From assembly GCA_023898525.1 (NCBI GenBank), contig CP060227.1, positions 493,634 through 557,633 on the forward strand: a stretch of 64,000 nucleotides of DNA. The letters are read 5' to 3'. This DNA comes from Candidatus Nomurabacteria bacterium (lineage in GTDB: Bacteria > Patescibacteriota > Minisyncoccia > Phycocordibacterales > UBA918). The notes under the pieces are model-generated. The model searched no databases. It was not told the DNA's origin and saw only the letters and a program-made list of their open reading frames with translations. The position numbers and the translations under genes are program-made. How positions within the stretch are numbered: the stretch's first letter is position 1; the number at the start of each line of letters is the position of its first letter. Of the stretch, positions 25,391 to 60,488 are shown piece after piece.

Positions 25391-25392
25391 GA

Positions 25393-27181: not shown

Positions 27182-27257
27182 GTAAAAGTTTTGCTTAGCA
27201 TAATTATACCAATAGTGAGAGTAGTAAATTCGCATTGATGTGAACAAGAAAGTCATA

Positions 27258-45827: not shown

Positions 45828-45916
45828 GGAGAGATGGCTGAGTGGTTGAAGGCAGCGGTCTTGAAAACCGCCATACGTTTACGCGTATCGAGGGTTCGAA
45901 TCCCTCTCTCTCCGCC
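45828..45916 (+). tRNA. tRNA-Ser (anticodon TGA), class II
   Basis: GGAGAGA acceptor, anticodon stem GCGGT/ACCGC with loop CTTGAAA, long variable arm, T arm GAGGG-TTCGAAT-CCCTC, discriminator G, then CC. Confidence 0.75.
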
Positions 45917-45923
45917 GTTTAGA

Positions 45924-45950
45924 GCTAGCACGAGACACCTTATTTTAAGC
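45924..45950 (+). repeat. Direct repeat 1 of 2 (GCTAGCACGA-N6-TTATTTTAAGC) flanking the beta-lactamase gene; partner at 47083-47110
   Basis: The partner copy forms a 12-bp-stem terminator hairpin (GGCTAGCACGA...TCGTGCTAGCC + GTTTTT at 47082-47130). Confidence 0.55.
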
Positions 45951-46066
45951 CGTATTTCCGACTTTAAATTTGACAGTGTTTGAGGTGTTCAAAACTGTCT
46001 GTATTTCAGACATTCATAATTTTGAAAATAGCAACTCGTGTGTTTTTTGTTATAATTACTATTATT

Positions 46067-47020: not shown

Positions 47021-47143
47021 TCTGTCCAAAAGGTATACAGCTCGTGTAACGAGAGAAATTCCCTTACTCTCCGCCAGACTCGGCTAGCACGACTCGCTTT
47101 AATTTTAAGCGTCTCGTGCTAGCCGTTTTTCGTTATATGGTTT

Positions 47144-48502
47144 ATGTATATGACAAACATAAATCATGGGTCAATGGAAGTGGCGACCTTAGATAAACAA
47201 CTTCCGCAAATTAAATATTGTCTTTATGCTCGAAAGTCTATGGAAGACGAAGATAGACAGGCACTGTCTATAGACTCTCAGTTAAAAGAAATGAGAAAGA
47301 TTGCTGAGCGTGAAAATCTATTCATTTCAGCCGTTCGTACAGAAGCTCATTCAGCAAAGCTGTCAGGTCAAAGACCAGTCTTCAACAAAATCATTGAGGA
47401 AATAAGAAACGAGAGATTTAATGCAATCCTAACGTGGAATGCGGACAGGTTAAGCAGGAATGCTGGCGACTTGGGAGTTCTAGTTGATTTAATGGACCAA
47501 AATCAACTAACTGAGATACGGACATATAATCAAACATTTAGTAACTCACCAAATGAGAAGTTTCTTCTTATGATTTTGTGTTCACAAGCCAAACTTGAGA
47601 ATGACAACAAAAGTATAAATGTAAAACGAGGACTACGAATGAAGGTAGAAATGGGGTTATGGCCATGTATCGCACCCACAGGGTACTTAAATGATATGGT
47701 CCGTGGGCACGAAGGAAGAGTTATCGTTGATCCAGCACGGGCACACATCATTAGAAAAATGTTTGAACTAGTAGCTGAAGGCTGGACACAAAGACAGTTA
47801 CGGTTTTGGTTAAAAGATGAACTAGATTTCACCACCAGAACTGGCAAACATCTAAGTATGGGTAGTATTCAAAAGATTTTGAGTACGCCTTTTTATTATG
47901 GCGAGTTTGAATACCCTAAAGGTAGCGGTAAGTGGTACAAAGGTATTCACAAACCAATTATCACAAAAGAGTTATTCGATATAGTTAAAGCTCAAAATCA
48001 AGCCCGCAGAAAACAGAATTACATTTTCAGGAAAAATATTGCTTTCACCAAACTGATGAAGTGTGGTTTATGCGGTGGCAACGTAACTGCTGAGGAGAAA
48101 TTCAAAGCACTTAAAGACGGAACTATCGCAAGATACGTTTATTATGGCTGCACTCGATCGAAAGATGTGAACTGCAAAATTAAATACATCCGAGAAGAAA
48201 AGTTAATCGAAAAATTACGTGAGCTAATCGACAAAATATCTTTGGATGATTTAGGTCTTAGGGGTCAGTTTGAACAAGAGGTTGAGCGCATACATAAATT
48301 CAACTGTGATGTTATGGGAAAACCACCAGTTTACTCTGATGAGGAGCAGAGAGAAGTAGACATTAAGAAATACGTGAAGTATTTGCTCGCCTACGGAGAT
48401 ATAGATGAAAAAAGACATATTTTAATTAGTCTTAAAAACAAACTGATCTTGAAAGATGGCGAGGTGTATTTAGAAACTATTGATGATACTGAGGAAATTT
48501 AA
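47144..48502 (+). CDS. Large serine recombinase, paralog 3
   Basis: YARKSMEDED, LSIDSQ, ILTWNADRLSRNAGDLG. Confidence 0.85.
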   Translation: MYMTNINHGSMEVATLDKQLPQIKYCLYARKSMEDEDRQALSIDSQLKEMRKIAERENLFISAVRTEAHSAKLSGQRPVFNKIIEEIRNERFNAILTWNADRLSRNAGDLGVLVDLMDQNQLTEIRTYNQTFSNSPNEKFLLMILCSQAKLENDNKSINVKRGLRMKVEMGLWPCIAPTGYLNDMVRGHEGRVIVDPARAHIIRKMFELVAEGWTQRQLRFWLKDELDFTTRTGKHLSMGSIQKILSTPFYYGEFEYPKGSGKWYKGIHKPIITKELFDIVKAQNQARRKQNYIFRKNIAFTKLMKCGLCGGNVTAEEKFKALKDGTIARYVYYGCTRSKDVNCKIKYIREEKLIEKLRELIDKISLDDLGLRGQFEQEVERIHKFNCDVMGKPPVYSDEEQREVDIKKYVKYLLAYGDIDEKRHILISLKNKLILKDGEVYLETIDDTEEI

Positions 48503-48729
48503 TCGCCAACATTGAAGGCGACTTCAAGTACGATAGTGACCAATCGCTCCATACGCTCAGTATAGAAGTTGAAAATTGGTTCGGTGATAAAAGTTATTGC
48601 CCAAGTCCAAAAATTCAAAAAATTATCAAAATTCCATGTCACCAGACCATAGAGTATAGAAACACTAAAAAAGCCAATCACAAGCCATTTTAGGACTTTC
48701 TGGGGCCACCTGAATGATAAATCGTCCAT
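48499..48729 (-). CDS. Small two-TM membrane protein (MDDLSFRWP...), paralog of 31644..31904
   Basis: Last gene of the type I R-M operon. Confidence 0.5.
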   Translation of the reverse strand: MDDLSFRWPQKVLKWLVIGFFSVSILYGLVTWNFDNFLNFWTWAITFITEPIFNFYTERMERLVTIVLEVAFNVGD

Positions 48730-48766
48730 TTAGGCATTTTATGCTTCTGGGTACGATTAGCAACTG

Positions 48767-49510
48767 TTAGAGAATATGCACTCCGAAAGCTTCGAGTTTA
48801 TCTTTCTTTTTCTCCCACTTGGGATATTTCTCGTCTAAAAATGCGAAGAACTTCTTATCGTGATTTTTGTATCGCATATGACAAAGTTCATGAACAATAA
48901 CGTAGTCAATACAGTCTTTTGATACGTGTATTAGTTTGGGATTAAGAATGATTTTGTCTTTGTTCACAAAACTACCCCAACGACGCTTCATGTCCCGAGT
49001 AGTCAAGGCTGGAGTATGTTTGTAATCAAAACGCTCAAGCATCTCGTTAAATCTTTCTTCGAAAACACTTTGTCGTTTTTGATCAAACCAAAGCTTAACA
49101 AGTTTTTGAGTATGGACACCGTCACTTAATGCCTTAGTGGTGGAAACCATTAGTACTCCTCGCAGAAGAGAAACAGAATCTATCTCTCCCTTTCGAACAA
49201 TTAACTTATGCTGTCTGCCAAGGTAGTGGAAACTTTCGCCAGAAACATACTCTTTGGTATACGTTTTACGTTGGTACTTACCAAAGAAGTTCAGTTGTTT
49301 CTGTAGCCAAAACCATTTCTTTTTCAAGAATTGCTCAATTCTTTCATCATCAGCTTCATGTGGACACTTAACACAAATCCGCATATCCGGAGTAACGGTT
49401 AGGCTGAGGGTTTTTCTATCTTGTTTAATGAGGTCGTAGCAGTAGACGAATGAGCCAAAAATAAATTCTTTTTGCTGTTTAGGAGAAGATTTCATGGTTA
49501 TTCTCAGCAA
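48767..49510 (-). CDS. YgjP/DUF45 (M48-like, HExxH) metal-dependent hydrolase commonly linked to type I R-M operons
   Basis: VHELCHM motif. It overlaps the hsdR stop by 32 nt. Confidence 0.65.
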   Translation of the reverse strand: MLRITMKSSPKQQKEFIFGSFVYCYDLIKQDRKTLSLTVTPDMRICVKCPHEADDERIEQFLKKKWFWLQKQLNFFGKYQRKTYTKEYVSGESFHYLGRQHKLIVRKGEIDSVSLLRGVLMVSTTKALSDGVHTQKLVKLWFDQKRQSVFEERFNEMLERFDYKHTPALTTRDMKRRWGSFVNKDKIILNPKLIHVSKDCIDYVIVHELCHMRYKNHDKKFFAFLDEKYPKWEKKKDKLEAFGVHIL

Positions 49511-52500
49511 GCATAAGTGTATTGTTTATGATGGTTCGAATATCATCATTGGTAAGATCAATCTGCTTTTCAGTCTTTACTGTGTCGTAGAGGTAATCAT
49601 CAACCTTATTCATGATTTTTCTTTTCACATCTAAGTTTTTGTACCAATCAACAATAGCTTCTGCTTTAACGATATTGAAAATATCGAGGACTATTGTAAC
49701 GAATTCTTCTTCTGAAAGTTTAAAGTTGCCAAATGATTCTCTTAAGTTTCGATAAAACACATCTGAACCACTAACAGACTCAATCGCGGTTGGTAGACTG
49801 TCATCCTTTTTATTAACAACATCATCGCTAATTAGCTTCAATTGCTTAAGAGCAGCGATGTCAGCCATTTTGCCCTCATGCATTTTCTTTAAGATGTCTG
49901 ATATTTTCTTTGAGAATCGCTCGTAGAATTCAGGATCAGAATCCATCTTTTCAGTAATGTTCTTTTGAGTCTGTGCCGCAATCGCTTCTGCCTTAGATTT
50001 ATCTGATCCTAGTGTTTCGATTGCTTCCTCAAACTTTTCGCGATCAGTAATATTGATTTGTTTAGTTAAAAGCTCGACACTTTGGGCATCTACGTACTTA
50101 TCAAGAATCCCAACCAGTGATTGTTTGTATTCCGCCAAATCAACTCGGTCTGCATACTTCAAACTAGCAGTCTTTCGAAGCTCCATAAACTTCTTAAGTT
50201 CACGAGTGTACATATCGAGATTATCAAACTCATGAACAAAGTCTTGAAGCACAAAACACTCATTTAGATTTTTGATGAAAGCATTGAGAGTTTTGTAGAA
50301 AGTCTCTCGGGTCGGGGCATCATCCAGTAACTGTAAAAACTCTTCATCGTCAGATGAGCCTTTAATAGTTTTAAAGATGTCTTGAAGAAGACTGTAACTT
50401 TCTTCCAACTCCTCAACCTTCTTACTCACATCAACCATGGTGCCTTTCACGTCTTCTTCATCGTAGTTACCAAACAGCTTCATCGCTGTATCAATGTTCT
50501 TGGCATTTTCAGAGTAGTCGATGATATACCCTGCTGTCTTAGGCAACTTCTTATTTTCATGCAATCGGTTTACACGAGCAATTGCTTGTAAAAGGTTATG
50601 GTCACGCAAGTCTTTTGCTAAGTAGAGCACTGTATTTCGAGGGGCATCAAAGCCGGTCAAAAGCTTATCTACAACGATGATGATTTCGATTCCATCATCA
50701 TTGTATTTAAAGCTATCAATCACATCTTTTTCATACTTCGCTACACTACTGTGATTCTTTCGTACACTATCAAGGTACTTTACCACCTCAGCCTTATGGG
50801 TGTTTGCTTCGTCACCATCATCATGCTCGTCTGAAATAACTACTGCAGTACGAATTTTCGCCCTGTCTTGGAAGAACTTCTGAAACAAAACAGCCGAATA
50901 CTTTGAAGGAGCAACCAACTGTGCTTTAAGACCAGTATCTTGGAAATGTTCCGTGAAGTGCTTTTCAATGTCATACCCAATTTCAACAATACGCTGAGGA
51001 TTGTCTTTAATAACTTTAGTACTTATGTATTTCTGAATCTCTCTTTTTTGCTTTTCGTTTAAGTCTTCAGTAATTCGATCTACCTGTCTATCAATTTGCT
51101 CAGCATTCTGTTCCATTGGCACATAACGCCCCTCATAGATAAGCGGAAGAATGATGTTATCAGCCAGAGCATCATCAATCGTGTATTTGTCGATATATCC
51201 ACCAAACTTTTTCCAACTAGCCTTCTCTGACTTCATGAGTGGGGTACCAGTAAAGCCGATGTAACACGCATTTGGAATAATGCGATTCATCTCAAGATTG
51301 GCGATACCGCTTTGACTACGGTGTGCTTCGTCAATCAAGACGAAAATATTTTGATCGTCATCAATAAAGCCAGCCTTTTTCTTAGCTGCTGAATCAAACT
51401 TATCGATCACCGTTGTAATTACACCGAGGTTTTTATCCTTGATGAGATCAAGCAGGTTTTGTCCGCTGGTAGCCTGAATAACCTCTTTCTTGAGATTACA
51501 GTTTTTAAAGGTATCTCGAATTTGTTTATCCAAGTCTTTTCGGTCAGTCACAATTAGAACCCGAGGGTTGCTAATCTCAGGATTTTCAATCAGCGCCTTC
51601 ACGAACATGACCATTGTCAGTGACTTTCCTGACCCTTGTGTATGCCACACCAAACCACCTTTTCGACGAGTAATACCTGTATCAGTAGTCTCAGTTTCTT
51701 TAATGTGGTTCAACATTTTGCTGATAGCAAAATACTGCTGGTAGCGAGAAAGTTTTTTAACACCTGCATCAAAAAGAATGTAGTTCTTTGTGAGATCAAG
51801 TAAACGCGCAGGTTCAAAAAGCGACAAAATACCTCGATCTTGCTCAGTCGGTAACCGATTCAGTTTTTGCTTATGGCCAGTAGTGTATCCATTCAAATCA
51901 GTCAGTACTTGTTTGTATATTTCTGCATCTACTGGTGTTGCAATCAGCTTTTTAATCTTTGCGTCTAGTTCTTTTGGTGTTGTACCTTTTTCTTTCCAGA
52001 CAGCATAAAACTTATTTGGTGTACCAGTCGTACCGTATTGCAATTCTTTGCCATTTGTCCCTACAAGCAACTGGGTAAAGGTATACAGTTTTGGGCAAAA
52101 CTCAGGTCCCTGATTACGATTCATCTGATTAATCGCTTCAACTACGGGAACACTAGACTTTTTATTCTCAATAACTGCAAATGGGATACCATTTACGAAA
52201 CAAACGATATCAGGGCGAATGTTTTGCTTACCACTGGCCACATATTCAGCTGTGATATGGAAGGAGTTGTTTTCAGGATGTTCAAAATCAATAAAACGAA
52301 AGTTCTTTGAGACCGTCTTACCACCCGCACTCACCTTAATAGTCTTACCGCCCGAAGTTGGCATGATGATGTTGTAGATTTTTTGTGAAGTATCAATCAG
52401 GCCCTCGTACTGGATATGTTCAAGCTCTTCAATCGTGTCTCGAACGTCTTTCTCACTAAACTTGTATGATTTACCATCAACCTCATATCCGTTGATATCC

Positions 52501-52667
52501 ATCAATTTACGTTCAGCAATATCTGCCAGTATGAAATTGCTGGTGTCGCCACCACGTTCCTTGAGCACATCCTCAGCAGAAATGTATTGGTAGCCCATAG
52601 CAATCAGTAACTCAAGGGTGGTGAGTTGAGACTGTCGGGCTTCGTCAAAGTGTACTTTTTCTAACAT
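49479..52667 (-). CDS. hsdR: Type I restriction enzyme R subunit (second system)
   Basis: WHTQGSGKSLT, VLIDEAHRSQ; 1062 aa. Confidence 0.9.
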   Translation of the reverse strand: MLEKVHFDEARQSQLTTLELLIAMGYQYISAEDVLKERGGDTSNFILADIAERKLMDINGYEVDGKSYKFSEKDVRDTIEELEHIQYEGLIDTSQKIYNIIMPTSGGKTIKVSAGGKTVSKNFRFIDFEHPENNSFHITAEYVASGKQNIRPDIVCFVNGIPFAVIENKKSSVPVVEAINQMNRNQGPEFCPKLYTFTQLLVGTNGKELQYGTTGTPNKFYAVWKEKGTTPKELDAKIKKLIATPVDAEIYKQVLTDLNGYTTGHKQKLNRLPTEQDRGILSLFEPARLLDLTKNYILFDAGVKKLSRYQQYFAISKMLNHIKETETTDTGITRRKGGLVWHTQGSGKSLTMVMFVKALIENPEISNPRVLIVTDRKDLDKQIRDTFKNCNLKKEVIQATSGQNLLDLIKDKNLGVITTVIDKFDSAAKKKAGFIDDDQNIFVLIDEAHRSQSGIANLEMNRIIPNACYIGFTGTPLMKSEKASWKKFGGYIDKYTIDDALADNIILPLIYEGRYVPMEQNAEQIDRQVDRITEDLNEKQKREIQKYISTKVIKDNPQRIVEIGYDIEKHFTEHFQDTGLKAQLVAPSKYSAVLFQKFFQDRAKIRTAVVISDEHDDGDEANTHKAEVVKYLDSVRKNHSSVAKYEKDVIDSFKYNDDGIEIIIVVDKLLTGFDAPRNTVLYLAKDLRDHNLLQAIARVNRLHENKKLPKTAGYIIDYSENAKNIDTAMKLFGNYDEEDVKGTMVDVSKKVEELEESYSLLQDIFKTIKGSSDDEEFLQLLDDAPTRETFYKTLNAFIKNLNECFVLQDFVHEFDNLDMYTRELKKFMELRKTASLKYADRVDLAEYKQSLVGILDKYVDAQSVELLTKQINITDREKFEEAIETLGSDKSKAEAIAAQTQKNITEKMDSDPEFYERFSKKISDILKKMHEGKMADIAALKQLKLISDDVVNKKDDSLPTAIESVSGSDVFYRNLRESFGNFKLSEEEFVTIVLDIFNIVKAEAIVDWYKNLDVKRKIMNKVDDYLYDTVKTEKQIDLTNDDIRTIINNTLMLAENNHEIFS

Positions 52668-52673
52668 AGTAAT

Positions 52674-53843
52674 TTATTTAGTGGCTGATAATGATTTAAC
52701 TGTTCTAATATTCCCGTGAACCAGGTTTTCTAGTAAGTATTTTCTCTGTTCTCTTACAAGTTTTAATTTGTCTTTTAAGTTCTCTAGTTCAAGTTCGCAA
52801 GTTTCAAATATCTCAGCAATTTTGATTTGATCGTCAGTATTCTCTGGAAGACTTACCTTTGTCTGCAAGAATTGGTTTTTTGACAAATTATATCTACTGA
52901 CTCCCTGAGCTATTCTAAACATATGTTTCCTAAATGACTTACCCCTAAACAAAAAACGAGCAAAACGTGGCTCTAAAATATTTTGTTTTGGTCTAAACCC
53001 AAAACAAAAGCTGTTTAGCAAGACTTTATTTTTACTTTCATCTAAGAAAACTGAGGACATACCTACATCCTGTGGTGTTTCTGATGATGTGGTGAATATC
53101 AAATCACCATACTCTAAGTAATTCTGCTTCTCTCCTTTTTGGATAGAAACTAAACCATATTGATCAGGATGAATCTTTGAGTTTGAAAAAACATTCATGT
53201 ATGTGACATATGGTGTGCCAAAACCGAAGTCGTCTTTTGATTTTCCTGTAAGTCCAGTAAAGGTTACTCCTAATTGGGAGATGGTATAAGTTTTCCATTC
53301 GCTTTTTGAACCTGGTACTTTAATTCGTTCATTCAATACTTCTTCTAGTAGACCTTTCTTTGTTTGTTCCTTTTTACGAATAGTTCTTTGTAGTTCATTA
53401 ATATAGCAATCCCATGTAGTAAGGATTGAAACAATTTTCTCTTGTTCTGCAGTTGGAGGGAAATCAAAAGGTATTTTTTCAATAGTCGTTTTAGATAAAC
53501 TTGGTACGCCAGAAGCTTCGTTGTATTTAAGCCAATTAATTTTCTGAAAAACGTAGTTGATGTATTTAGCAGTAGTGTCCTTGAAGTTGTAGGTATAGAA
53601 AAGCGTATCTACTGTCCAAAATTTTCCATTGTAGTAAAACGGTTTGTTAATAGTTCCTTTTCTGCCAATAAAAACTGTCTCGCCTTCGTGCAACGGGGTA
53701 TCTACGTGACGCATTAAACCACCTGTTCCAAACACTGGAATATCTCCGTCTTTGAGATGCTTATGGTCTTTGCCACTTCCTATTTTCAGCACGTCGCCAA
53801 GCTTTTTTCGAGACCATCCTTTAACTAAAGTTTCTTTTTTCAT
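52674..53843 (-). CDS. hsdS: Type I R-M specificity subunit, full length (second system)
   Basis: Two TRDs. Its N-terminus is homologous to the hsdS at 24248..25390. Confidence 0.8.
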   Translation of the reverse strand: MKKETLVKGWSRKKLGDVLKIGSGKDHKHLKDGDIPVFGTGGLMRHVDTPLHEGETVFIGRKGTINKPFYYNGKFWTVDTLFYTYNFKDTTAKYINYVFQKINWLKYNEASGVPSLSKTTIEKIPFDFPPTAEQEKIVSILTTWDCYINELQRTIRKKEQTKKGLLEEVLNERIKVPGSKSEWKTYTISQLGVTFTGLTGKSKDDFGFGTPYVTYMNVFSNSKIHPDQYGLVSIQKGEKQNYLEYGDLIFTTSSETPQDVGMSSVFLDESKNKVLLNSFCFGFRPKQNILEPRFARFLFRGKSFRKHMFRIAQGVSRYNLSKNQFLQTKVSLPENTDDQIKIAEIFETCELELENLKDKLKLVREQRKYLLENLVHGNIRTVKSLSATK

Positions 53844-53844
53844 A

Positions 53845-54282
53845 TTACTTTTGAATTTTCTCTAAGTCAGCTGGCATATACCGCACCACGTTACCTTGCT
53901 TATCGACTGAAAAGACATGAAGCAAGAGCTTCTTGGCAATTTGATATGGAATACGTTTGATAGCCTTGTCGGCTGATTTTTTAGGCAGAGCAATACCGTA
54001 GTAGTAGCGTGTAGAACCAGAAGTGTTCATGCGAGTAATGATCTGGCCAAGTGAGTAAATAAAAGCCACCTCTTCACTTGAAGAATTATTTGAACCCTTA
54101 CACTCAATAAGGTAATAGCGTGAGTATCGTGTGTGGACCGCTTTAATATCGACTCCTTTCTCTCGTAGGGTAGCCACCTTAACTAACCGCCAATGATGTT
54201 TCGACAGCCATTCAATCACTCTTGTTTGCACAAAGTCTTCGGTGATGTCTCGTGAGGTATCTTTTTTCTTAGCATTACTCAT
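53845..54282 (-). CDS. Small PD-(D/E)xK nuclease-fold protein (Mrr/NERD-like)
   Basis: GVDIKAV...YYLIECKG fits D...ExK. Confidence 0.45.
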   Translation of the reverse strand: MSNAKKKDTSRDITEDFVQTRVIEWLSKHHWRLVKVATLREKGVDIKAVHTRYSRYYLIECKGSNNSSSEEVAFIYSLGQIITRMNTSGSTRYYYGIALPKKSADKAIKRIPYQIAKKLLLHVFSVDKQGNVVRYMPADLEKIQK

Positions 54283-54284
54283 AT

Positions 54285-55178
54285 TTAATTGTCGATAGCT
54301 ATTACTTGGGAAGGCACATTGTCACCGTTTTCCTTAGGTGCCATGATGACCTGCTTGTAGTGATTGCAGGCAGCGTTCAAATATTCCTGTAACTCGTCTA
54401 GATTAACAAGTCCGTTTTTTATATCGTCTGGATGTATGGCTATGATGAGTCTTTCACAAACATTAATTTGCTTATTAGCTTCAATGTAACTATCAATAAT
54501 CTCCTTGGCTGTCGTCATCTTAGTCAGCGACGCATTACGCCCATGGCCAGAATTTACTAGAGGAATTGTCACATATTTATTTCTACCCGATTCATTGCCA
54601 ATAAAATCCCAAACTGAAGCAAGCGAAGTAATCAGGTCATCAATACTTGCCTTAACACGATTGTTTTCTAGTTTGTGTGAGTTTGCTAGTAAATAAAATC
54701 TCTTATTGTTATTTTCCACCTCAACTGTCGTACCAATTGGATTTTCAGTATTTTGAGAAACTTTATCTTTTATATCAGCCTCTAAATGCTCGTGCCTCCC
54801 ACCGTAGTAGTCACAAATTAACTTGTTTTGTAGACTATTTGCCTTTGCAACGTTCCCGCCTAAAGTCAGGTCAAAGTGATCATTTATTGGTACTATCAAA
54901 GCACCTTTATTTTTAAATGCGTCTCCAACTTTAACTTCAATAAAATTATCTTTTTTGCGAATCCTGCTTGAAAAAGAAGTTTTCGGTTTATTCTTTAAAA
55001 TTGCAATAATAAAAATTAGCACCATTATTGGTAATGCAAACCACGGTTCTTTGAAAAGATGATCAACAACCCCGCTGGTCATGTAGCTACTCATCTCAAC
55101 GGCCAACCAAAATAAACCTAAGCCAGTTACTGTGTCAGCTACAATCAGTTTCCATTTTTTGATCCAGCGTAAAATCAT
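54285..55178 (-). CDS. thsA: Thoeris type II ThsA-like effector: N-terminal TM helices + C-terminal Macro domain
   Basis: ALIVPINDHFDLTLGGNVAKA aligns with the macro motif AIVNAAN-x6-GGGV, and SGHGRNAS with the second macro glycine-rich loop. Two N-terminal TM helices. Confidence 0.55.
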   Translation of the reverse strand: MILRWIKKWKLIVADTVTGLGLFWLAVEMSSYMTSGVVDHLFKEPWFALPIMVLIFIIAILKNKPKTSFSSRIRKKDNFIEVKVGDAFKNKGALIVPINDHFDLTLGGNVAKANSLQNKLICDYYGGRHEHLEADIKDKVSQNTENPIGTTVEVENNNKRFYLLANSHKLENNRVKASIDDLITSLASVWDFIGNESGRNKYVTIPLVNSGHGRNASLTKMTTAKEIIDSYIEANKQINVCERLIIAIHPDDIKNGLVNLDELQEYLNAACNHYKQVIMAPKENGDNVPSQVIAIDN

Positions 55179-55678
55179 AGTCCCAGATTTGTATATATCG
55201 AATTACCGTAATGGTATGCACCTGTCTTACCTTGTGCTCGATATGACTTGTGATCTTCTGGCCATTCGCGAATGGCTTTTGCCACAATTGATTTATTGAA
55301 ACTTACGTGCACCGCAAGTTCCCCAGTCAAAATGGCAGGACACAAATCATCCTTATCTCTTTTACCGTTTAGATTGACAACTACTATAGGAATGTCTTTT
55401 TTGATTGCTTGTTCGATTTCCCAGCGAACAAATTTGTATAGATATTTTGTGTTGTTACCCACCAAAAGTAGAAAGACACGGGTATTGGAAAGACGTTCCC
55501 GCAACTTTGCCTTAATTGTCTCCTCAGAAGAATAGGGCATTAGGTTGTTTAGATCATGTGCGTCATAAAAACCAAATGCACTGCCGTCTGTCTTTCGCCA
55601 AGCCTGCATTAGTCGGTAGTAACGAATATCGTTATCAGCATCAAACGCAACGTATGCTTTGTTAGTATAGGTGCTCAT
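55175..55678 (-). CDS. thsB: Thoeris ThsB-like TIR-like domain protein (DUF1863 type)
   Basis: KAYVAFDADND...RVFLLLVGNNTKYLYKFVRWEIEQAIKKDIPIVVVNLNG matches the MTH538 TIR-like pattern. It overlaps thsA by 4 nt. Confidence 0.6.
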   Translation of the reverse strand: MSTYTNKAYVAFDADNDIRYYRLMQAWRKTDGSAFGFYDAHDLNNLMPYSSEETIKAKLRERLSNTRVFLLLVGNNTKYLYKFVRWEIEQAIKKDIPIVVVNLNGKRDKDDLCPAILTGELAVHVSFNKSIVAKAIREWPEDHKSYRAQGKTGAYHYGNSIYTNLGL

Positions 55679-55679
55679 A

Positions 55680-57017
55680 TTATTTGCTATTTTTAGTTGC
55701 TATATCTTTAACATCTTTCACGCTCTCAATAACTTCATTTTTCATCTTTTTATAGAACCCTTCCACATGAAAGCGTTCTGAAACACGGTCAATTATTGTT
55801 TCGCCCCGACCAAGATGCTCTGCGGGATTATGTTCAATAGCTTCGAGAAGTATTTGAGCCAATTTGTCCTTATTTGCAGTGTCTAACTGATATGATTTGT
55901 CTCCCGTATTAAACAATAGATACATCTCTACGACTCTAAGTTTGTGATTATATTCTTCAAATAAGCGTTTACGTTGAGAGATATTTCTTTGCCCGTACCA
56001 TGCGATCCAGATTAAAGGAATTGAAATAATGGTCTTTACGTAGATCAGCTCAAGTGCAGAGGGAGTGACACCTTCAGCAGTGAGACTATTGAGAACTATT
56101 TCTGCAGTCTTCTCATTCACAAAAATGAGAGACACACCTACAAGAGGTAATATGAACATCGCATAGTTCATAACTGAGCCAACGTGACGACCTAAAATAT
56201 TATGAAAAAATATAAGGACATTTTCGATGTGTGCACCTTTAATGAATTCTTTTCGCTTGAACTTTGAATATTCAGATTTAGATTCTGTGTAAGCGTTTAG
56301 TAAAGTTCTGGTGGTTGCATCAGATAGAAGAGAGTTTACATCTTCACGCTTAGTATCAATGTCAGTCCTCAGATCTTTAAGATACTTTCTTGTTTCTTCT
56401 ATTTCTGGAGTTACTTCGGTGTCAATTTTTTTCTTAAAAAGCTCCGCTTTCTTAATGTTAGCTTCAAGATTTTGAATTTCACTATTCTCACCCTCAGGAG
56501 CATCAAACAACTCTTCGTATTTTTCGGTGATTTCTGTGTATATTCTTTTTGTCTCTTCTTCAATGCCGTCAGTCTCTGTGAGTTTTGTATAGAAATCACG
56601 AATTTCCTTTGCTTTACCTGAGGTTCCATCACCGCCTAGCAAATCAACATAAAAATCTGTGATTTTTTGTTGAGAATCCTTTATATCAGTTTGTATTGAA
56701 TCTGGGTTTGAAATCAGTTCAGCGTGATAGGCCTTAATAGCATCAACTTGTGTTTGTAGTGCATTAACAACAGAAGTATCTGCGATAGATCCGTTGGGAA
56801 AGATTTTTGTGTACGCATTATTAATATCCTGAATTTTTTGTTCTATGGCAGGCAAAACTGCTTCAGACCCATTATCTCCTTCAAAAAACTTTTTGTAGAG
56901 TTCATTGATTGATCCTATTTCTTCAAGCGATGCCTTGATCAGATCCCACAGTTCTTCCTTAGTTGGAGATTTTGCGCTTGGGTCTATTTGCGAAAGTAGT
57001 TCGTTAAGCTTGCTCAT
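55680..57017 (-). CDS. Hypothetical 445-aa protein: long N-terminal coiled coil plus 3-4 C-terminal TM helices, embedded between hsdM and Thoeris
   Basis: No catalytic motif. TM segments include YAMFILPLVGVSLIFV and IISIPLIWIAWYG. Confidence 0.4.
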   Translation of the reverse strand: MSKLNELLSQIDPSAKSPTKEELWDLIKASLEEIGSINELYKKFFEGDNGSEAVLPAIEQKIQDINNAYTKIFPNGSIADTSVVNALQTQVDAIKAYHAELISNPDSIQTDIKDSQQKITDFYVDLLGGDGTSGKAKEIRDFYTKLTETDGIEEETKRIYTEITEKYEELFDAPEGENSEIQNLEANIKKAELFKKKIDTEVTPEIEETRKYLKDLRTDIDTKREDVNSLLSDATTRTLLNAYTESKSEYSKFKRKEFIKGAHIENVLIFFHNILGRHVGSVMNYAMFILPLVGVSLIFVNEKTAEIVLNSLTAEGVTPSALELIYVKTIISIPLIWIAWYGQRNISQRKRLFEEYNHKLRVVEMYLLFNTGDKSYQLDTANKDKLAQILLEAIEHNPAEHLGRGETIIDRVSERFHVEGFYKKMKNEVIESVKDVKDIATKNSK

Positions 57018-57020
57018 AAA

Positions 57021-58529
57021 TTATTTGATACCTAATTCTTTTAAATAAACTTCCATCTGTTTTTCCAGCTTCTTTAGCTCAGGTTCAAGCTTTGCCAGCT
57101 CTTTCAAGTTCGCTTCAATGTCTACAGGCTCCTCTTCCTCAAAGGTATCTACATACCGTGTGATGTTCAGGTTAAAATCATTCTCCTCAACCTCAGCCAA
57201 GTCAACCTTGCGAGCAAACTTTTCTACATCTTTCCGCTTCACGAATGTATCGTAAATTTTATTGATGTGGTCTTCGGTAAATATGTTTTGAGCTTTGCCA
57301 GCTTTAAACTCTTTCGATGCTTCAATAAAGAAGATGTCTTTCTTCATTTCGTTAGCGCCACCTTTCTCACGTGAGCGGTCGATTACTAAGACTGCAACTG
57401 GAATACCCGTGGTTTGGAATAGTCCAGCAGGTAAACCAATTACCGCATCAATGATGTTTTCTTTAATTAGTTGCTCACGAATTTTTCCCTCTGCACCGCT
57501 TCGGAAGAGAACACCATGAGGAACAATCACTGCTACACGACCAGTCTTAGGTTTAGCGGTTTCGATCATGTGGGTAATGAATGCAAAATCCCCCTTGTCT
57601 TTAGGTGGTACTCCTCGCCAGAAGCGATTGTACGCATCAGACTCTGCATGCTCTGCACCCCACTTCTTCAGGGAGAATGGTGGGTTTGCTACAACTACAT
57701 CGAAGTGCATGAGTTGGTCATTTTCAACTAAGAGCGGGTTATTTAGTGTGTCGCCCCATTCAATACGGGCTGAGTCTTTACCATGCAAAAACATGTTCAT
57801 ACGAGCAAGCTGATAGGTAGCACCAGTAGATTCTTGCCCATAGAGCGCATAGTTCTTTGAACCTTTCTTTTCTACTTCTTCACCAGCTAAAAGCAGAAGG
57901 CCGCCCGAACCACAAGCAGGGTCGGCTATACGGTCACCTTCTTTAGGTTGCGCTAGCATGGCTACTAACTGAGCTACGGACCTCGTCGTGAAAAATTCAC
58001 CCGCCTTTTTTCCAGCAGCTGCACCGAAGCGCTCAATCATGTACATGTATGAGTTTCCAATGATGTCATCTCCAACATCAGACAGGTCGATTTTTGCGAA
58101 ATCTTGAATCAAGTTGCGAAGCATCTTATTTCGCTGTGGTAGTTTGCCAAGCAGTGCTTCTGAATTGAAATCAACACTAAACACACCTTCGAGCTTATCG
58201 CTGTTAGCGTCTTCAATACGATGGAGGGCTTTGTTTATCTCATCGCCGATATTATCTTCTTCAATTTTGCTGTAGATGTAGTCAAAAGATGATTTGGGAG
58301 GTAGGTAGAAACGGTCGAGTTTCATTTTCTCCTCAATACGCTTTTCGTCATCGCCAAATCGCTCTTTGTACTCTTGGTACTTCTTTTTGTTTTGATCACT
58401 CAAATACTTAAAAAACAACATCGGCAACGCATAGTCCTTATACGTTTCAGCCGCCAATTGACTGCGGGAAGAATCAGCCGCTGACCAGAGTACTTTATTG
58501 AGTTCTTCTTGTGTGAATTTTTTAGTCAT
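57021..58529 (-). CDS. hsdM: Type I R-M N6-adenine methyltransferase subunit (second system)
   Basis: VVANPPFSLKKWG. Confidence 0.9.
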   Translation of the reverse strand: MTKKFTQEELNKVLWSAADSSRSQLAAETYKDYALPMLFFKYLSDQNKKKYQEYKERFGDDEKRIEEKMKLDRFYLPPKSSFDYIYSKIEEDNIGDEINKALHRIEDANSDKLEGVFSVDFNSEALLGKLPQRNKMLRNLIQDFAKIDLSDVGDDIIGNSYMYMIERFGAAAGKKAGEFFTTRSVAQLVAMLAQPKEGDRIADPACGSGGLLLLAGEEVEKKGSKNYALYGQESTGATYQLARMNMFLHGKDSARIEWGDTLNNPLLVENDQLMHFDVVVANPPFSLKKWGAEHAESDAYNRFWRGVPPKDKGDFAFITHMIETAKPKTGRVAVIVPHGVLFRSGAEGKIREQLIKENIIDAVIGLPAGLFQTTGIPVAVLVIDRSREKGGANEMKKDIFFIEASKEFKAGKAQNIFTEDHINKIYDTFVKRKDVEKFARKVDLAEVEENDFNLNITRYVDTFEEEEPVDIEANLKELAKLEPELKKLEKQMEVYLKELGIK

Positions 58530-59106
58530 GTTGTTTTGTAAGGTTAGTAAATGTTGCTTCGACGATTTGTTGTTTTAAATACTGGCGACGATCGACAATT
58601 GATTGTTGGGCTTGAATGTTTTCATGCAGTGCTACGATTGCTTTTTGCTTCTCTAGCTCTGGCACTGGAATTTTTATGTGTATGAGTTCCCGCCGGGGTA
58701 AGGCCCCAATGTATGAACCAGTGACGATATTAGCCAGTGAGTCTTGTCCCTCTTTTGAATTGAGGTAGTGAGATAGAAACTCTGGAAGCACCTTGCTCGT
58801 ACTTATTCGAATAATGTGTACAGATGCCGATGCAATAACATTCTGAGCATCAGACATGAAGACAGCTGCACGAAAGGCACCAGCCTTCATACCTCGTGCC
58901 ACAATTAGAACATCATTTTTTTGGAGGTACCTGTCGTCAGGAGGGAGGTCAAGCGATATCTTGGTCAATGAACTCACATCCGAGACTGGGACACCTTGTA
59001 CCAAGTCACGAGCCTGAAATACCAGTGTATTGCCGTTGCGCGTTTCTTCAATAGCTCCGCGAAAAGCGTAGCCTGGAGTTACTTGGGCAATATCTGACAA
59101 TTTCAT
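58522..59106 (-). CDS. hsdS: Half-size type I R-M specificity subunit (single TRD)
   Basis: 194 aa. Its C-terminal conserved helix (ELEKQKAIV) is typical of HsdS. Confidence 0.65.
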   Translation of the reverse strand: MKLSDIAQVTPGYAFRGAIEETRNGNTLVFQARDLVQGVPVSDVSSLTKISLDLPPDDRYLQKNDVLIVARGMKAGAFRAAVFMSDAQNVIASASVHIIRISTSKVLPEFLSHYLNSKEGQDSLANIVTGSYIGALPRRELIHIKIPVPELEKQKAIVALHENIQAQQSIVDRRQYLKQQIVEATFTNLTKQHD

Positions 59107-59153
59107 ATGCAGTAGTATATGTTACTGCGTAATATTTGTAAAGTACCCTACCT

Positions 59154-60488
59154 CTAGTTAGGCTGACTTTGTAATTTAACAACCTTGTTATTCATGGTTA
59201 TTTTCGAGTTAAAGCATGAAAGTATCTCTCGCTTTTCCTCGATAGTACCGTCTTTGAGTAAGAACTTTATGTAGCTTTTCGCATCTATCTCACTTGCATC
59301 AGTACTTGTCTTCTCACCCAAAAGGGTCTGATTGAATTTCTTGTACCGAGCAACCTCAGCTTTAATTCGCTTGATCACTTCGCCCTCGCTGAACGAAGCG
59401 ACATCGACAAGCTTTTGAAGTTGTTTGATGAGATCAGTCTCATTTAAGTAACCACACTTACAGTGCTTGTCCCGTGCTTTGGTGCAGGTGTAATAGACAT
59501 GAGCGTTAATCTTGCCGTTCTTAAGCTTTTTGTATTTCTCATCAGCACTAATACCAGATCCGCACAAACCACAAATCATCAGCTTGGTGAAAGCGAACTC
59601 TTTTTCTTGGCGAGTCTTTAATTCGTTTCCTTTCAGTTGTTCTTGGACTAGGTCAAATAATTCTTTCGTGATGAGTGGTTCATGTCGCCCTTGATACCAG
59701 TTGCCACTGTTGCGAGGATATTCAAAGACACCGTAGTAAAAGTGATTCTCAAGAATTCGGTAAATATTGCCGAGACTTAAATGCTTTTTACTAGGTAGAG
59801 CACGGAAGTTTAATTCAAACCGAAGCCAGTTATAGACCTTGCGACCAGACCACTTTTCATACGCGACCTTCTCAAATACCTTTTTAATCACAGGTGCACG
59901 TTCTGGGTCGATAAGTGTCTCGCATTTACGATCCATTCGTTTTTCTTTCACGTACCCTGTCGGTGCTGGAGCTGGCCACAACCCCATCTCCACCCGAGCC
60001 TTAAGGCCACGCTTCACATTAATACTCTTGTTATCGTTCTCCAGCTTGGCTTGGGAACACAGAATCATGAGGAGAAACTTTTCACTTGGATTATTGGTGA
60101 ATGTCTGTCCATGTGTGCGTATCTCAACGAGTAGTTTTTGGTCCATGAGGTCAACCAACTCACCGAGGTCACCAGCATTACGACTGAGTCGGTCAGGGTG
60201 CCACACAATAATCCCATTAAATTTCTCTCTTCGTATATCTTCTAGTATTTCTCTGTATACAGGTCGCTGGCCAGATGCTTTGGCGGAATGAGCTTCACGG
60301 CGAACTTCTACTATATCGAGACCTTCTTTCTCAGCCATCTGCATCATTTCGTTCACTTGTGATTCAATAGAAAGTGCTTGGCGCTCATCTTGCTCGGTAC
60401 TTTTGCGAGCGTATAAAACATAACGCACCGCTATAGGTGGCGGTGCGATTGAGTGGCTCATTCGAGCGGATATCTGTTGTGTTTCCAT
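59154..60488 (-). CDS. Large serine recombinase, paralog 4
   Basis: YARKSTEQDE, LSIESQ, IIVWHPDRLSRNAGDLG. Confidence 0.85.
   Translation of the reverse strand: METQQISARMSHSIAPPPIAVRYVLYARKSTEQDERQALSIESQVNEMMQMAEKEGLDIVEVRREAHSAKASGQRPVYREILEDIRREKFNGIIVWHPDRLSRNAGDLGELVDLMDQKLLVEIRTHGQTFTNNPSEKFLLMILCSQAKLENDNKSINVKRGLKARVEMGLWPAPAPTGYVKEKRMDRKCETLIDPERAPVIKKVFEKVAYEKWSGRKVYNWLRFELNFRALPSKKHLSLGNIYRILENHFYYGVFEYPRNSGNWYQGRHEPLITKELFDLVQEQLKGNELKTRQEKEFAFTKLMICGLCGSGISADEKYKKLKNGKINAHVYYTCTKARDKHCKCGYLNETDLIKQLQKLVDVASFSEGEVIKRIKAEVARYKKFNQTLLGEKTSTDASEIDAKSYIKFLLKDGTIEEKREILSCFNSKITMNNKVVKLQSQPN

What the first reader, a model, noticed from the sequence alone, without database searches (positions are those of the whole stretch)
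48499..59106. Type I R-M operon with an embedded type II Thoeris-like pair and two unknown genes
The operon order on the minus strand is hsdS(half), hsdM, a 445-aa coiled-coil/TM unknown, a ThsB-like TIR (DUF1863 pattern), a TM+Macro protein, a 145-aa PD-(D/E)xK protein, hsdS(full), hsdR, a YgjP/DUF45 peptidase and the 2-TM mini-protein. The TM+Macro / TIR pair matches type II Thoeris, where His-ADPR signalling drives a Macro-domain membrane effector. Its insertion between hsdM and hsdS fits the known type I R-M defence hotspot. The 445-aa and 145-aa proteins are uncharacterised and may be additional effectors or sensors. Two hsdS genes, one half and one full, also suggest specificity shuffling.
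Basis: partly seen in the sequence, partly recalled or inferred. Interest (0 to 1): 0.75.

Follow-up and report, generated by a model that had tools for sequence, protein, structure and literature searches.

The report
Thoeris II inside a type I restriction operon
A tiny-genome (CPR) bacterium carries a ten-gene type I restriction-modification operon whose middle slot holds a standard two-gene Thoeris II anti-phage system plus two uncharacterised genes that turn out to be linked to restriction systems and not to Thoeris; this is a good example of a known pattern and not a new kind of system.

Summary
In detail: gene order, coordinates and every domain call hold (TIR ThsB, TM+Macro ThsA, PD-(D/E)xK 145-aa protein, HsdS/M/R, YgjP).

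- **Thoeris pair:** ThsB–ThsA is a canonical type II Thoeris pair embedded between hsdM and hsdS. Embedding of defence genes in type I operons is already documented.
- **The two unknowns:** neither is a Thoeris accessory.
  - The 445-aa coiled-coil/2-TM protein lies between hsdM and hsdS in 10 other loci, including a different type I family. None of those loci has Thoeris.
  - The 145-aa nuclease-fold protein is part of the operon backbone. Elsewhere it follows DNA methyltransferases. None of 80 metagenome loci has ThsA or ThsB nearby.
- **Cassette exchange:** comparison with sister operons shows exact gene-boundary swaps. p445 is a precise indel, and Thoeris II is replaced by another TIR pair (PDC-M50-like).
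- **Two hsdS genes:** half-hsdS plus full hsdS is a conserved architecture in 12 relatives, with no sign of shuffling.
- **Location:** the operon appears to be cargo at the tRNA-Ser-proximal end of a phage-like element that carries a serine recombinase.

Main novelty: the unannotated p445 family, which may be a type I R-M accessory.

The parts
59114..59142 (-). Promoter-like site (TTTACA-17-TATACT) in the 47-bp gap between the recombinase stop and the half-hsdS start. It overlaps the dyad GCAGTA-N8-TACTGC at 59109-59128.
   Evidence: Best match on the minus strand, 10 of 12. The -35 and the adjacent TTACGCAGTAA are conserved in L030. The dyad is unique in the window.
58522..59106 (-). Half-size hsdS (194 aa, one target-recognition domain), overlapping the hsdM start by 8 nt.
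   Evidence: PF01420 E 3e-9; PADLOC PDLC03199 positions 1-187 of 208, E 9e-19. Conserved upstream of hsdM in 12 related loci.
57021..58529 (-). hsdM, N6-adenine DNA methyltransferase subunit (502 aa; ADPACGSGG and NPPF motifs present).
   Evidence: PF02384 E 1.5e-100, PF12161 E 2e-23; motifs read from the translation.
55680..57017 (-). p445: uncharacterised membrane-anchored protein. It has a ~270-aa helical/coiled-coil N-terminus, two TM helices (282-300, 321-339), and an invariant juxtamembrane motif QRNISQRKRLFEEYNHK. It is a recurrent occupant of the hsdM-hsdS junction.
   Evidence: No Pfam, NCBIfam, PADLOC or PHROG family. Alignment A1. AF2 model all-helical, pLDDT 72. No fold match. Contexts. 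An exact gene-sized indel relative to L024.
55175..55678 (-). thsB: TIR-domain signal synthase of type II Thoeris (EcThsB2-like, subfamily 9), with invariant E87 and W27-x3-D31.
   Evidence: PF08937 E 9e-19; PADLOC ThsB E 1.5e-70; PDB 8V6T E 2.7e-27. Alignment A4.
54285..55178 (-). thsA: type II Thoeris effector with two N-terminal TM helices (11-29, 43-61) and a ThsA-type Macro domain (80-249). Its start overlaps the thsB stop by 4 nt.
   Evidence: PF20016 E 6.7e-31; PADLOC ThsA E 1e-37; PDB 8V6Q, 8R66, 9UUZ. Hydropathy.
53845..54282 (-). p145: small stand-alone PD-(D/E)xK nuclease-fold protein (E15, D45, E60-x-K62). It is a backbone gene directly upstream of the full hsdS.
52674..53843 (-). 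Full-length hsdS (389 aa, two target-recognition domains).
   Evidence: PF01420 E 1.2e-30, two stretches. The body is not homologous to the sister operons, as expected for swapped recognition domains.
49479..52667 (-). hsdR: restriction/translocase subunit (1062 aa) with an N-terminal PD-(D/E)xK nuclease and an SF2 motor (DEAH present).
   Evidence: PF04313 E 4e-33, PF18766 E 2e-78, PF22679 E 4e-23.
48767..49510 (-). YgjP-like (DUF45/WLM-type) zinc metallopeptidase and last conserved gene of the operon. The likely true start is the ATG at 49495.
   Evidence: PF01863 E 2.6e-50. Conserved after hsdR in L005, L006, L008, L011, L018, L019, L030 and L109. Junction sequence.
48499..48729 (-). 76-aa ORF, of doubtful status and not part of the conserved operon.
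   Evidence: No family hits. Homology with L030 ends at the YgjP stop, 48767.
59154..60488 (-). Large serine recombinase directly upstream of the operon and co-directional with it. It belongs to a phage-like element (terL 61255-62694, terS-like 62675-63070, MTase 63067-63765).
   Evidence: PF00239, PF07508 and PF13408. The same terL / opposite-strand gene / recombinase / operon order occurs in L030. terS-terL-recombinase occurs in IMG/VR contig L028.
47144..48502 (+). Second large serine recombinase, 53% identical to the first and convergent with the operon. It lies within a 1.6-kb segment that is absent from L030.
47056..47125 (+). tRNA-Ser 3'-end remnant followed by the GCTAGCACGA...TCGTGCTAGC palindrome. 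This is the probable boundary or attachment region of the integrative element.
   Evidence: Alignment with the L030 tRNA-Ser(gga) flank.

Best explanation
Window 48767-59142 (minus strand) is one tightly coupled operon from a Candidatus Nomurabacteria (Patescibacteria/CPR) genome. Its backbone is a complete type I restriction-modification system of a CPR-wide lineage: half hsdS, hsdM, p145, full hsdS, hsdR, YgjP peptidase.

The interval between the hsdM stop and the hsdS start is a modular cargo slot. Here it holds three separable modules:
1. p445, a membrane-anchored coiled-coil protein that habitually sits at the hsdM-hsdS junction.
2. A canonical two-gene type II Thoeris system.
3. p145, a small PD-(D/E)xK nuclease-fold protein, which belongs to the backbone of this sub-lineage.

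Mechanism, shown versus inferred:
- Shown by sequence: HsdM, HsdS and HsdR carry all the motifs needed to methylate self DNA and to cut unmethylated DNA.
- Inferred from characterised homologues: ThsB (TIR) senses infection and makes His-ADPR from NAD+. The ThsA Macro domain binds it and oligomerises, and the ThsA TM helices damage the membrane or arrest growth. This gives a second, abortive-type layer behind restriction.
- Inferred from context only: p445 acts with, or guards, the M/S core of the type I enzyme at the membrane. p145 is an accessory DNA nuclease of R-M systems.

The operon appears to be cargo between a large serine recombinase and a tRNA-Ser-proximal end of a phage-like integrative element. 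Modules seem to be exchanged at exact gene boundaries, most plausibly by homologous recombination through the conserved hsd flanks.
For: Source organism.

Domain and fold evidence. Tight gene junctions and a single upstream promoter-like site.

Backbone conservation: the order (half hsdS)-hsdM-...-hsdS-hsdR-YgjP is seen in L001, L004, L005, L006, L008, L009, L010, L011, L018, L019, L024, L030 and L109.

Exact cassette boundaries by blastn:
- Against L030, homology covers 60636-57013, 54292-53844 and 52693-48767 at 74-77%. The window's 57012-54293 (p445, ThsB, ThsA) is replaced by a PDC-M50A-like membrane protein plus a different ThsB-like TIR.
- Against L024, only p445 (57020-55686) is missing.
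- Against L001, hsdM and p445 are shared, and ThsB, ThsA and p145 are missing.

Mosaic identities: hsdM 94%, ThsB 86%, ThsA 81% and p145 94% to L024; p445 82% to L001.

p445 lies between hsdM and hsdS in 11 of 14 loci whose protein is at least 39% identical to it (counting the window). In 10 of those 11 it is immediately upstream of hsdS, often overlapping it. One case, L111, is a different type I family with R-M-X-S order and an EcoEI-type HsdR.

p145 lies next to DNA methyltransferases of type I, type II-like and ResIII-type systems.

ThsB-ThsA occurs as a stand-alone pair in L025-L027. The two-gene unit is sufficient in E. coli. The His-ADPR and Macro-oligomerisation mechanism comes from bioRxiv 10.1101/2024.01.03.573942 and PMC11204291.

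Mobile context.
Against: - Nothing here is experimental. Activity of the R-M system, of Thoeris and of both unknowns is inferred.
- ThsB has W-x3-D where EcThsB2 has W-x3-E. The Asp is invariant in this clade, but the effect is unknown.
- Loci were found through homology and many are short metagenome contigs. Several sister operons are close relatives, so the counts are not independent events.
- p445 divergence does not track hsdM divergence (Spearman about 0). That fits a fast-evolving or repeatedly exchanged gene, and argues against a strictly co-inherited subunit.
- p445 homologues also occur alone among housekeeping genes (L007, L012, L013, L110), so it cannot be an obligate R-M subunit.
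- In every type I-embedded case, p145 is preceded by a TIR pair (window, L018, L019, L024, L030, L033). A functional link to TIR systems within this sub-lineage is therefore not excluded.
- The element's far end lies beyond the window, so its boundaries are not proven.
Confidence: 0.8

Rival explanations
1. One reading: the four genes between hsdM and hsdS (p445, ThsB, ThsA, p145) form one extended Thoeris-like system, in which p445 and p145 act as additional sensors or effectors of the TIR signal.
For: All four are translationally coupled in one operon. ThsB-ThsA-p145 are contiguous in L024 as well. Every type I-embedded p145 follows a TIR pair. p445 has a 2-TM effector-like C-terminus placed directly upstream of the TIR gene.
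Against: - p445 is found in 10 R-M loci and 9 other loci, none with ThsA or ThsB.
- L024 has ThsB-ThsA-p145 without p445.
- p145 has no ThsA/ThsB neighbour in 0 of 80 metagenome loci, where it follows methyltransferases.
- p145 is conserved at backbone-level identity while the TIR cassette in front of it is swapped.
- ThsB-ThsA stands alone in L025-L027, and E. coli thsA-thsB2 suffices for defence.
- p445 matches no SLATT or other Pfam model and is unrelated to the PDC-M50A membrane partner.
Confidence: 0.08
2. p445 is a PrrC-style guard of the type I enzyme. Its cytoplasmic coiled coil docks on the HsdM/HsdS core. When a phage anti-restriction protein disables that core, p445 is released and its 2-TM module permeabilises the membrane, causing abortive infection.
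For: - p445 has a fixed position between hsdM and hsdS, usually overlapping hsdS, in two unrelated type I families.
- Close homologues are mostly R-M-embedded, 11 of 14 (same calls).
- It evolves fast relative to hsdM: 40-49% identity where hsdM is 74-83%.
- It has 2-TM plus coiled-coil anatomy and an invariant juxtamembrane motif.
- There is precedent in PrrC, embedded in a type IC locus and triggered by inhibition of the enzyme (PMC12707154).
Against: There is no homology to any known effector or guard. More distant homologues sit alone among housekeeping genes. No interaction or toxicity data exist. p445 was not found on IMG/VR viral contigs, which neither supports nor excludes the model.
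Confidence: 0.3
3. p445 is a non-lethal structural accessory that tethers the type I R-M complex to the cytoplasmic membrane, for example near DNA entry sites. Alternatively it is an unrelated membrane protein that hitch-hikes in the slot.
For: The position and anatomy are the same as for the guard model. Stand-alone copies next to housekeeping genes (L007 FtsX, L012 TyrRS, L013 and L110) fit a non-defence membrane role.
Against: It shows presence/absence polymorphism as an exact cassette within otherwise near-identical operons. It diverges rapidly. Both are typical of accessory defence genes and not of structural partners.
Confidence: 0.2
4. The two hsdS genes are substrates for recombinase-driven specificity shuffling (phase variation), with the flanking serine recombinases acting as the shufflers.
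For: Two hsdS genes and two recombinases lie in the same 13 kb.
Against: The two HsdS proteins share no significant similarity. Both genes are on the same strand, and no inverted or direct repeats link them. The half-plus-full arrangement is fixed in 12 related loci, most without nearby recombinases. The recombinases are large serine integrase-type enzymes tied to a phage-like element and a tRNA-Ser site.
Confidence: 0.03

Closest known systems
Type II Thoeris (TIR ThsB plus TM-Macro ThsA; B. amyloliquefaciens Y2 and E. coli ATCC 25922 / EcThsA-EcThsB2 systems)
   Same: It is a two-gene thsB-thsA unit with overlapping genes. ThsB is full-length homologous to EcThsB2 (PDB 8V6T), including the C-terminal tail typical of subfamily 9. 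ThsA has two N-terminal TM helices and a ThsA-type Macro domain homologous to 8V6Q, 8R66 and 9UUZ.
   Different: It is embedded inside a type I R-M operon in a CPR bacterium. It has a single ThsB, where the E. coli system has two. The W-x3-E motif reads W-x3-D. Signal chemistry and phenotype are untested.
Defence genes embedded in type I R-M operons (PrrC in EcoprrI; TgvAB in V. cholerae VPI-2; 'guilt-by-embedding' of Payne et al. 2024, bioRxiv 10.1101/2024.01.29.577857; RhuM and Bro-N type restriction-linked ORFs)
   Same: Unrelated defence modules sit between hsd genes and are co-transcribed with them. The slot content varies between otherwise homologous operons. In the sister loci examined here it holds RhuM/PDC-S05, Bro-N/PDC-S13, SLFN_AlbA_2 or a PDC-M50-like TIR pair.
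   Different: Three separable modules are stacked in one slot. In the papers I read, Thoeris was not mentioned as type I-embedded cargo. The operon lineage has a conserved extra half hsdS. The host is a Patescibacterium and the operon rides on a phage-like element.
PrrC anticodon nuclease (guard of a type IC enzyme)
   Same: Like p445, it is a gene found almost only inside type I R-M loci and adjacent to the specificity and methylase genes.
   Different: There is no sequence or fold relationship. PrrC is a soluble ABC-ATPase-like anticodon nuclease, whereas p445 is a coiled-coil 2-TM membrane protein with no catalytic domain detected.
Small stand-alone PD-(D/E)xK proteins (XisH, HamA nuclease core, NucS/Hjc-like, Mrr catalytic domain)
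   Different: It matches no Pfam, NCBIfam or PADLOC model, so it belongs to none of these families by sequence. Its habitual partners are DNA methyltransferases of several R-M types.
Defence hotspots of temperate phages and satellites (P2/P4-type cargo regions next to the integrase)
   Same: The R-M/Thoeris operon lies between a serine integrase-type recombinase and a tRNA-proximal end, beside terminase genes. The same layout carries different cargo in L030.
   Different: The integrase is a large serine recombinase and not a tyrosine integrase. The host is CPR. The element is only partly inside the window, so its phage nature and boundaries are not established.

Membership tests
Type II Thoeris | ThsB protein with a TIR (ThsB_TIR/DUF1863) domain | tested here: met
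   PF08937, 68.2 bits (cut-off 21.2); PADLOC ThsB PDLC00429 positions 2-167 of 167, E 1.5e-70; PDB 8V6T (EcThsB2), E 2.7e-27 over residues 3-167.
Type II Thoeris | Catalytic glutamate and the W-x3-E motif of ThsB2-type TIRs | tested here: inconclusive
   E87 (RWEIEQ) is invariant and aligns with the HEID segment of 8V6T. The Trp shown to be essential in E. coli is present as W27, but the motif reads W-R-K-T-D. The Asp is invariant in this clade.
Type II Thoeris | ThsA effector with two N-terminal TM helices and a C-terminal ThsA-type Macro domain | tested here: met
   PF20016 positions 1-183 of 183 on residues 80-249, 107.9 bits (cut-off 25); PADLOC ThsA, E 1e-37; PDB 8V6Q, E 1.5e-7; hydropathy peaks at 11-29 and 43-61.
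Type II Thoeris | thsB and thsA adjacent and co-oriented as a self-sufficient two-gene unit | tested here: met
   There is a 4-nt overlap in the window. The same pair stands alone in L025, L026 and L027.
Type II Thoeris | His-ADPR production on infection, binding by the Macro domain, and anti-phage protection | not testable with these tools
   This needs LC-MS of infected lysates, ligand-binding assays and plaque assays.
Type I restriction-modification system | HsdM with N6_Mtase and HsdM_N domains and the AdoMet and NPPF motifs | tested here: met
   PF02384 E 1.5e-100 and PF12161 E 2e-23. ADPACGSGG and ANPPF are seen in the translation.
Type I restriction-modification system | HsdS with two target-recognition domains | tested here: met
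   The 389-aa HsdS has two PF01420 stretches. An additional 194-aa one-domain HsdS lies upstream of hsdM.
Type I restriction-modification system | HsdR with an N-terminal nuclease and an SF2 translocase | tested here: met
   PF04313, PF18766, PF04851 and PF22679. PD...ExK and DEAH motifs are seen in the translation.
Type I restriction-modification system | Sequence-specific methylation and restriction activity | not testable with these tools
   This needs methylome data (SMRT or nanopore) from the source sample, or expression in a surrogate host.
PD-(D/E)xK nuclease superfamily (p145) | Alpha-beta-beta-beta-alpha-beta core carrying a D...(D/E)xK signature | tested here: met
XisH family (PF08814), for p145 | Sequence match to the XisH profile | tested here: not met
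   The Pfam scan found no family at E up to 0.1. The resemblance is at fold level only, with 18% identity.
SLATT or other known 2-TM defence effectors, for p445 | Match to SLATT or any other Pfam/PADLOC effector profile | tested here: not met
   There was no hit beyond generic coiled-coil noise in Pfam, NCBIfam, PADLOC or PHROGs for p445 or for 17 homologues. hhalign against the PDC-M50A membrane protein gave probability 0.1%. Foldseek against the PDB gave a best E of 0.31.
Phase-variable (shufflon-type) type I R-M | Multiple hsdS copies sharing repeats, in inverted orientation, with a dedicated recombinase | tested here: not met
   The two hsdS genes are on the same strand, share no similarity (E 0.006 over 33 aa) and have no linking repeats. 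The arrangement is fixed across relatives.

The most novel reading that the evidence does not exclude
p445 defines a new, so far unannotated family. It has 768 representatives at 50% clustering and no Pfam, PADLOC, NCBIfam or PHROG model. The reading is that p445 is a dedicated membrane-anchored partner of type I restriction enzymes. It would be either a PrrC-like guard that converts inhibition of the HsdM/HsdS core into membrane-mediated abortive infection, or a tether that places restriction at the membrane of CPR bacteria. In parallel, p145 would be a new small accessory nuclease shared by type I, type II-like and ResIII-type R-M systems of Patescibacteria.
Probability: 0.3. Interest if true: 0.7.

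Novelty: new member of a known kind. Interest (0 to 1): 0.45.

Why it matters
The locus is a clean natural example of layered immunity, with restriction first and TIR-signalled membrane attack second, expressed from one operon in a Patescibacterium. Defence in that group is little studied.

The comparison with sister operons shows cassette exchange at exact gene boundaries. One TIR system replaces another and p445 comes and goes, so the hsdM-hsdS slot can be used as a discovery site for defence genes in CPR.

The more valuable lead is p445. It is a sizeable unannotated family whose close members sit between hsdM and hsdS in two distinct type I families. If it guards or localises the enzyme, it would add a new kind of partner to a 60-year-old enzyme class. 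p145 is a second R-M-linked family with no annotation.

The Thoeris pair and the embedding principle are already known.

Tried and rejected
- **p445 structure:** the AF2 model is all-helical with pTM 0.30. Foldseek against the PDB found nothing significant, best E 0.31. A profile search of PDB sequences returned only coiled-coil noise. The afdb50 library was unavailable.
- **p445 families:** Pfam scans of 17 distant or longer p445 relatives found no informative domain.
- **p445 and TIR effectors:** hhalign of p445 against the PDC-M50A membrane protein showed no relation.
- **p445 on phages:** an IMG/VR scan found no relatives.
- **Co-evolution test:** pairwise identities of p445 and hsdM gave Pearson 0.27 (p 0.16) and Spearman -0.02. 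This gives no support for strict co-inheritance and is uninformative on function.
- **p445 neighbours outside R-M:** they are housekeeping genes, an integrase, DUF4917 and DUF2130, with no consistent partner.
- **p145 profile against PDB sequences:** nothing.
- **XisH idea for p145** (an excision factor for the neighbouring serine recombinases): rejected as a membership claim because there is no sequence match. However, 10 of 80 p145 loci do have such a recombinase nearby.
- **hsdS shuffling:** rejected.
- **Dyad at 59109-59128 as a repeated att site:** it is unique in the window.
- **Literature:** searches for PDC-M50 and for Thoeris in Patescibacteria found nothing relevant.

Full report
**1. 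Observation**

The window comes from a 1.09-Mb contig of a Candidatus Nomurabacteria MAG, with locus tags H6779_02505 to H6779_02520.

HMM searches confirm each call:
- Half-size HsdS: PF01420, and a full-length match to a ~208-aa PADLOC Specificity_I model.
- HsdM: PF02384, E 1.5e-100.
- ThsB TIR: PF08937, E 9e-19; PADLOC ThsB, E 1.5e-70.
- ThsA Macro: PF20016, E 6.7e-31; PADLOC ThsA, E 1e-37.
- Full HsdS with two recognition domains.
- HsdR with nuclease, SWI2/SNF2 motor and domain 3.
- YgjP-like peptidase (all).

ThsB is full-length homologous to the crystal structure of E. coli ThsB2 (8V6T, E 2.7e-27). The ThsA Macro domain is homologous to 8V6Q, 8R66 and 9UUZ. ThsA has two N-terminal hydrophobic helices.

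The genes are separated by 8 nt or less, or overlap. The strongest promoter-like site on that strand lies just upstream of the half hsdS.

**2. The 145-aa protein (p145)**

It matches no curated family. Its relatives number at least 449 clusters, mostly labelled Patescibacteria where named. They keep E15, D45, E60-x-K62, Q80, R84 and R92 invariant.

Its context points to restriction-modification and not to Thoeris:
- In L018, L019 and L030 it sits directly upstream of the full hsdS in the same operon type.
- In L020, L031, L032 and L069 it lies between a Dam-like methylase and a ResIII-type restriction enzyme.
- In L021-L023 and many others it ends an HTH / N6_N4-methylase / DUF6996-7 / (DUF4145) cassette.
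- Of 80 metagenome loci, none has ThsA or ThsB within 6 kb. Of the 39 with at least 2.5 kb of upstream sequence, 27 have a methyltransferase homologue from my limited panel, and 8 more have only the C-protein-like HTH.
- Some relatives are fused to a HARE-HTH domain.

**3. The 445-aa protein (p445)**

It also has no family match. It has a ~270-residue helical/coiled-coil N-terminus, two TM helices, and an invariant juxtamembrane motif QRNISQRKRLFEEYNHK. Fold and profile searches gave nothing.

An exhaustive HMM search finds 768 cluster representatives. The distant ones share mainly the C-terminal membrane module.

Context is informative. Among 14 loci whose protein is at least 39% identical to it (including the window), 11 place it between hsdM and hsdS. 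In 10 of those 11 it is immediately upstream of hsdS, often overlapping its start. These loci are L001, L004, L005, L006, L008, L009, L010, L011 and L109 in the half-hsdS lineage, plus L111. L009 and L011 needed genetic code 25.

L111 is a different type I family, with HTH-hsdR-hsdM-X-hsdS order and an EcoEI-type HsdR, followed by Hachiman. None of these loci has a Thoeris pair.

More distant homologues stand alone among housekeeping or mobile-element genes. p445 divergence does not follow hsdM divergence.

**4. Modular slot**

DNA comparison with sister operons gives exact boundaries.
- L030 is collinear from upstream of the recombinase to the hsdM stop (60636-57013), across p145 (54292-53844), and from the end of hsdS to the YgjP stop (52693-48767), all at 74-77% identity. 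In L030 the window's p445-ThsB-ThsA block (57012-54293) is replaced by two genes. These are a small multi-TM protein matching PADLOC candidate PDC-M50A (E 3e-41) and a different ThsB-like TIR (E 2.7e-67).
- L024 differs only by the absence of p445 (57020-55686). Its hsdM is 94% identical to the window's, ThsB 86%, ThsA 81% and p145 94%.
- L001 shares hsdM and p445 (82%) but lacks ThsB, ThsA and p145.
- Other sister operons carry Bro-N/PDC-S13, RhuM/PDC-S05 or SLFN_AlbA_2 genes in the slot.

So the insert is a stack of separable modules and not a four-gene system. p145 belongs to the backbone of this sub-lineage. ThsB-ThsA also occurs as a stand-alone pair in other bacteria, and its relatives are spread over several phyla at about 50% identity.

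**5. Two hsdS genes**

The half and full HsdS share no similarity and are co-oriented without linking repeats. The pair is conserved in 12 related loci. This is a fixed architecture and not a shufflon.

From established knowledge, recalled and not tested here: half-size HsdS can dimerise to give a palindromic specificity. If so, the operon may encode two specificities.

**6. Mechanism**

- Shown by sequence: a complete type I enzyme and a complete type II Thoeris pair in one transcription unit.
- Inferred from characterised homologues: ThsB makes His-ADPR on infection. The Macro domain binds it and oligomerises. The TM helices damage the membrane or arrest growth (bioRxiv 10.1101/2024.01.03.573942; PMC11204291; bioRxiv 10.64898/2026.01.22.701046).
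- One caveat: the W-x3-E motif reads W-x3-D here, invariant in this clade.
- p445 and p145 have no demonstrated function. My best guess for p445 is a partner or guard of the HsdM/HsdS core acting at the membrane. For p145 it is an accessory R-M nuclease. Both are inference from context.

**7. Wider context**

- The operon starts 47 bp after a large serine recombinase (59154-60488). That gene follows terL, a terS-like gene and a methylase.
- The same terS-terL-recombinase order occurs on an IMG/VR contig.
- The same order (terL, small opposite-strand gene, recombinase, operon, YgjP) occurs in L030. There it ends at a GCTAGCACGA...TCGTGCTAGC palindrome next to tRNA-Ser.
- The window has the same palindrome preceded by a tRNA-Ser 3' remnant at 47056-47125. 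An extra recombinase and the 76-aa ORF are inserted before it. A beta-lactamase gene lies between it and an intact tRNA-Ser.
- The operon therefore looks like cargo at the tRNA-proximal end of a phage-like integrative element.

**8. Comparison and novelty**

Embedding of defence genes in type I operons is established. Examples are PrrC, TgvAB, and the survey by Payne et al., which found 17,432 nonredundant genes in 3,231 families embedded in BREX, DISARM and type I R-M systems. Type II Thoeris is well characterised.

The locus is thus a new member of a known kind. The less ordinary elements are:
- the p445 family and its fixed hsdM-hsdS position in two type I families;
- the R-M-linked p145 family;
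- the swap between two TIR systems at one site;
- the CPR and phage-like setting.

Interest 0.45.

Noticed in passing
window 20253-29200: A second, different type I R-M operon lies on the minus strand: hsdM 25393-26961, hsdS 24248-25390, and EcoR124-type hsdR 21417-24218, followed by a 383-aa protein with no Pfam or PADLOC hit (20253-21404). It also lies directly downstream of a large serine recombinase (27258-28655), which is preceded by an IrrE/M78 peptidase gene (28652-29200).
   Followed up: partly
window 27258-28655, 35827-37233, 47144-48502, 59154-60488: There are four paralogous large serine recombinases (50-54% identical) within 64 kb of a ~1.1-Mb CPR genome. Twice they are arranged as recombinase followed by a type I R-M operon. 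This suggests a family of integrative elements that deliver R-M cargo.
   Followed up: partly
window 45828-47125: A class A beta-lactamase gene (45980-47020) sits between an intact tRNA-Ser(tga) followed by GCTAGCACGAGAC (45924-45936) and a tRNA-Ser 3'-end remnant plus the full palindrome (47056-47125). It is a ~1.1-kb islet bounded by direct repeats of a tRNA end.
   Followed up: partly
window 44786-44807 and 44974-44995: A perfect 22-nt duplicate of the 3' end of tRNA-Arg(gcg) lies 188 bp from the gene, with inverted partial copies at 44926-44947. It may be an integration scar.
   Followed up: no
window 32892-34941 and L028 3516-4805: Two overlapping N6_N4 DNA methylase genes are present. 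The 424-aa one has a close homologue (E 3e-138) sitting next to terS-terL on the IMG/VR contig that also carries the recombinase homologue. Phage-derived genes are therefore scattered over more than 30 kb of the window.
   Followed up: no
L030 5879-6983; L018 5108-6199; L019; L033: Sister operons carry a PDC-M50-like pair in the slot: a ~132-aa multi-TM protein and a 229-aa ThsB-like TIR. This is an untested PADLOC candidate that looks like another TIR-plus-membrane-effector system. It was not detected by Pfam.
   Followed up: partly
L111 2970-13074: A p445 homologue lies between hsdM and hsdS in a different type I family (HTH-hsdR-hsdM-X-hsdS, EcoEI-type HsdR). A Hachiman system (HamA plus helicase) follows immediately.
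   Followed up: no
proteins P0124, P0134, P0152, P0157, P0161, P0173: These are 228-231-aa fusions of a HARE-HTH domain (PF05066) to the p145 nuclease domain. They suggest a DNA-binding version of the same enzyme.
   Followed up: no
L040, L072, L097, L098: In these loci p145 homologues sit immediately next to a convergent large serine recombinase. Overall, 10 of 80 p145 loci have one within 6 kb. Together with the fold-level similarity to XisH, a factor for a serine-recombinase excision system, this is unexplained.
   Followed up: partly
window 59109-59128: The dyad GCAGTA-N8-TACTGC overlaps the -10 region of the operon's promoter-like site. It is unique in the window, and its left arm is conserved in L030. 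It may be an operator or a recombinase site.
   Followed up: partly
window 49495-49510: The YgjP ORF as listed starts at a TTG (49510) inside hsdR. An ATG five codons downstream (49495) gives a more plausible start, with a 17-nt overlap with the hsdR end.
   Followed up: yes
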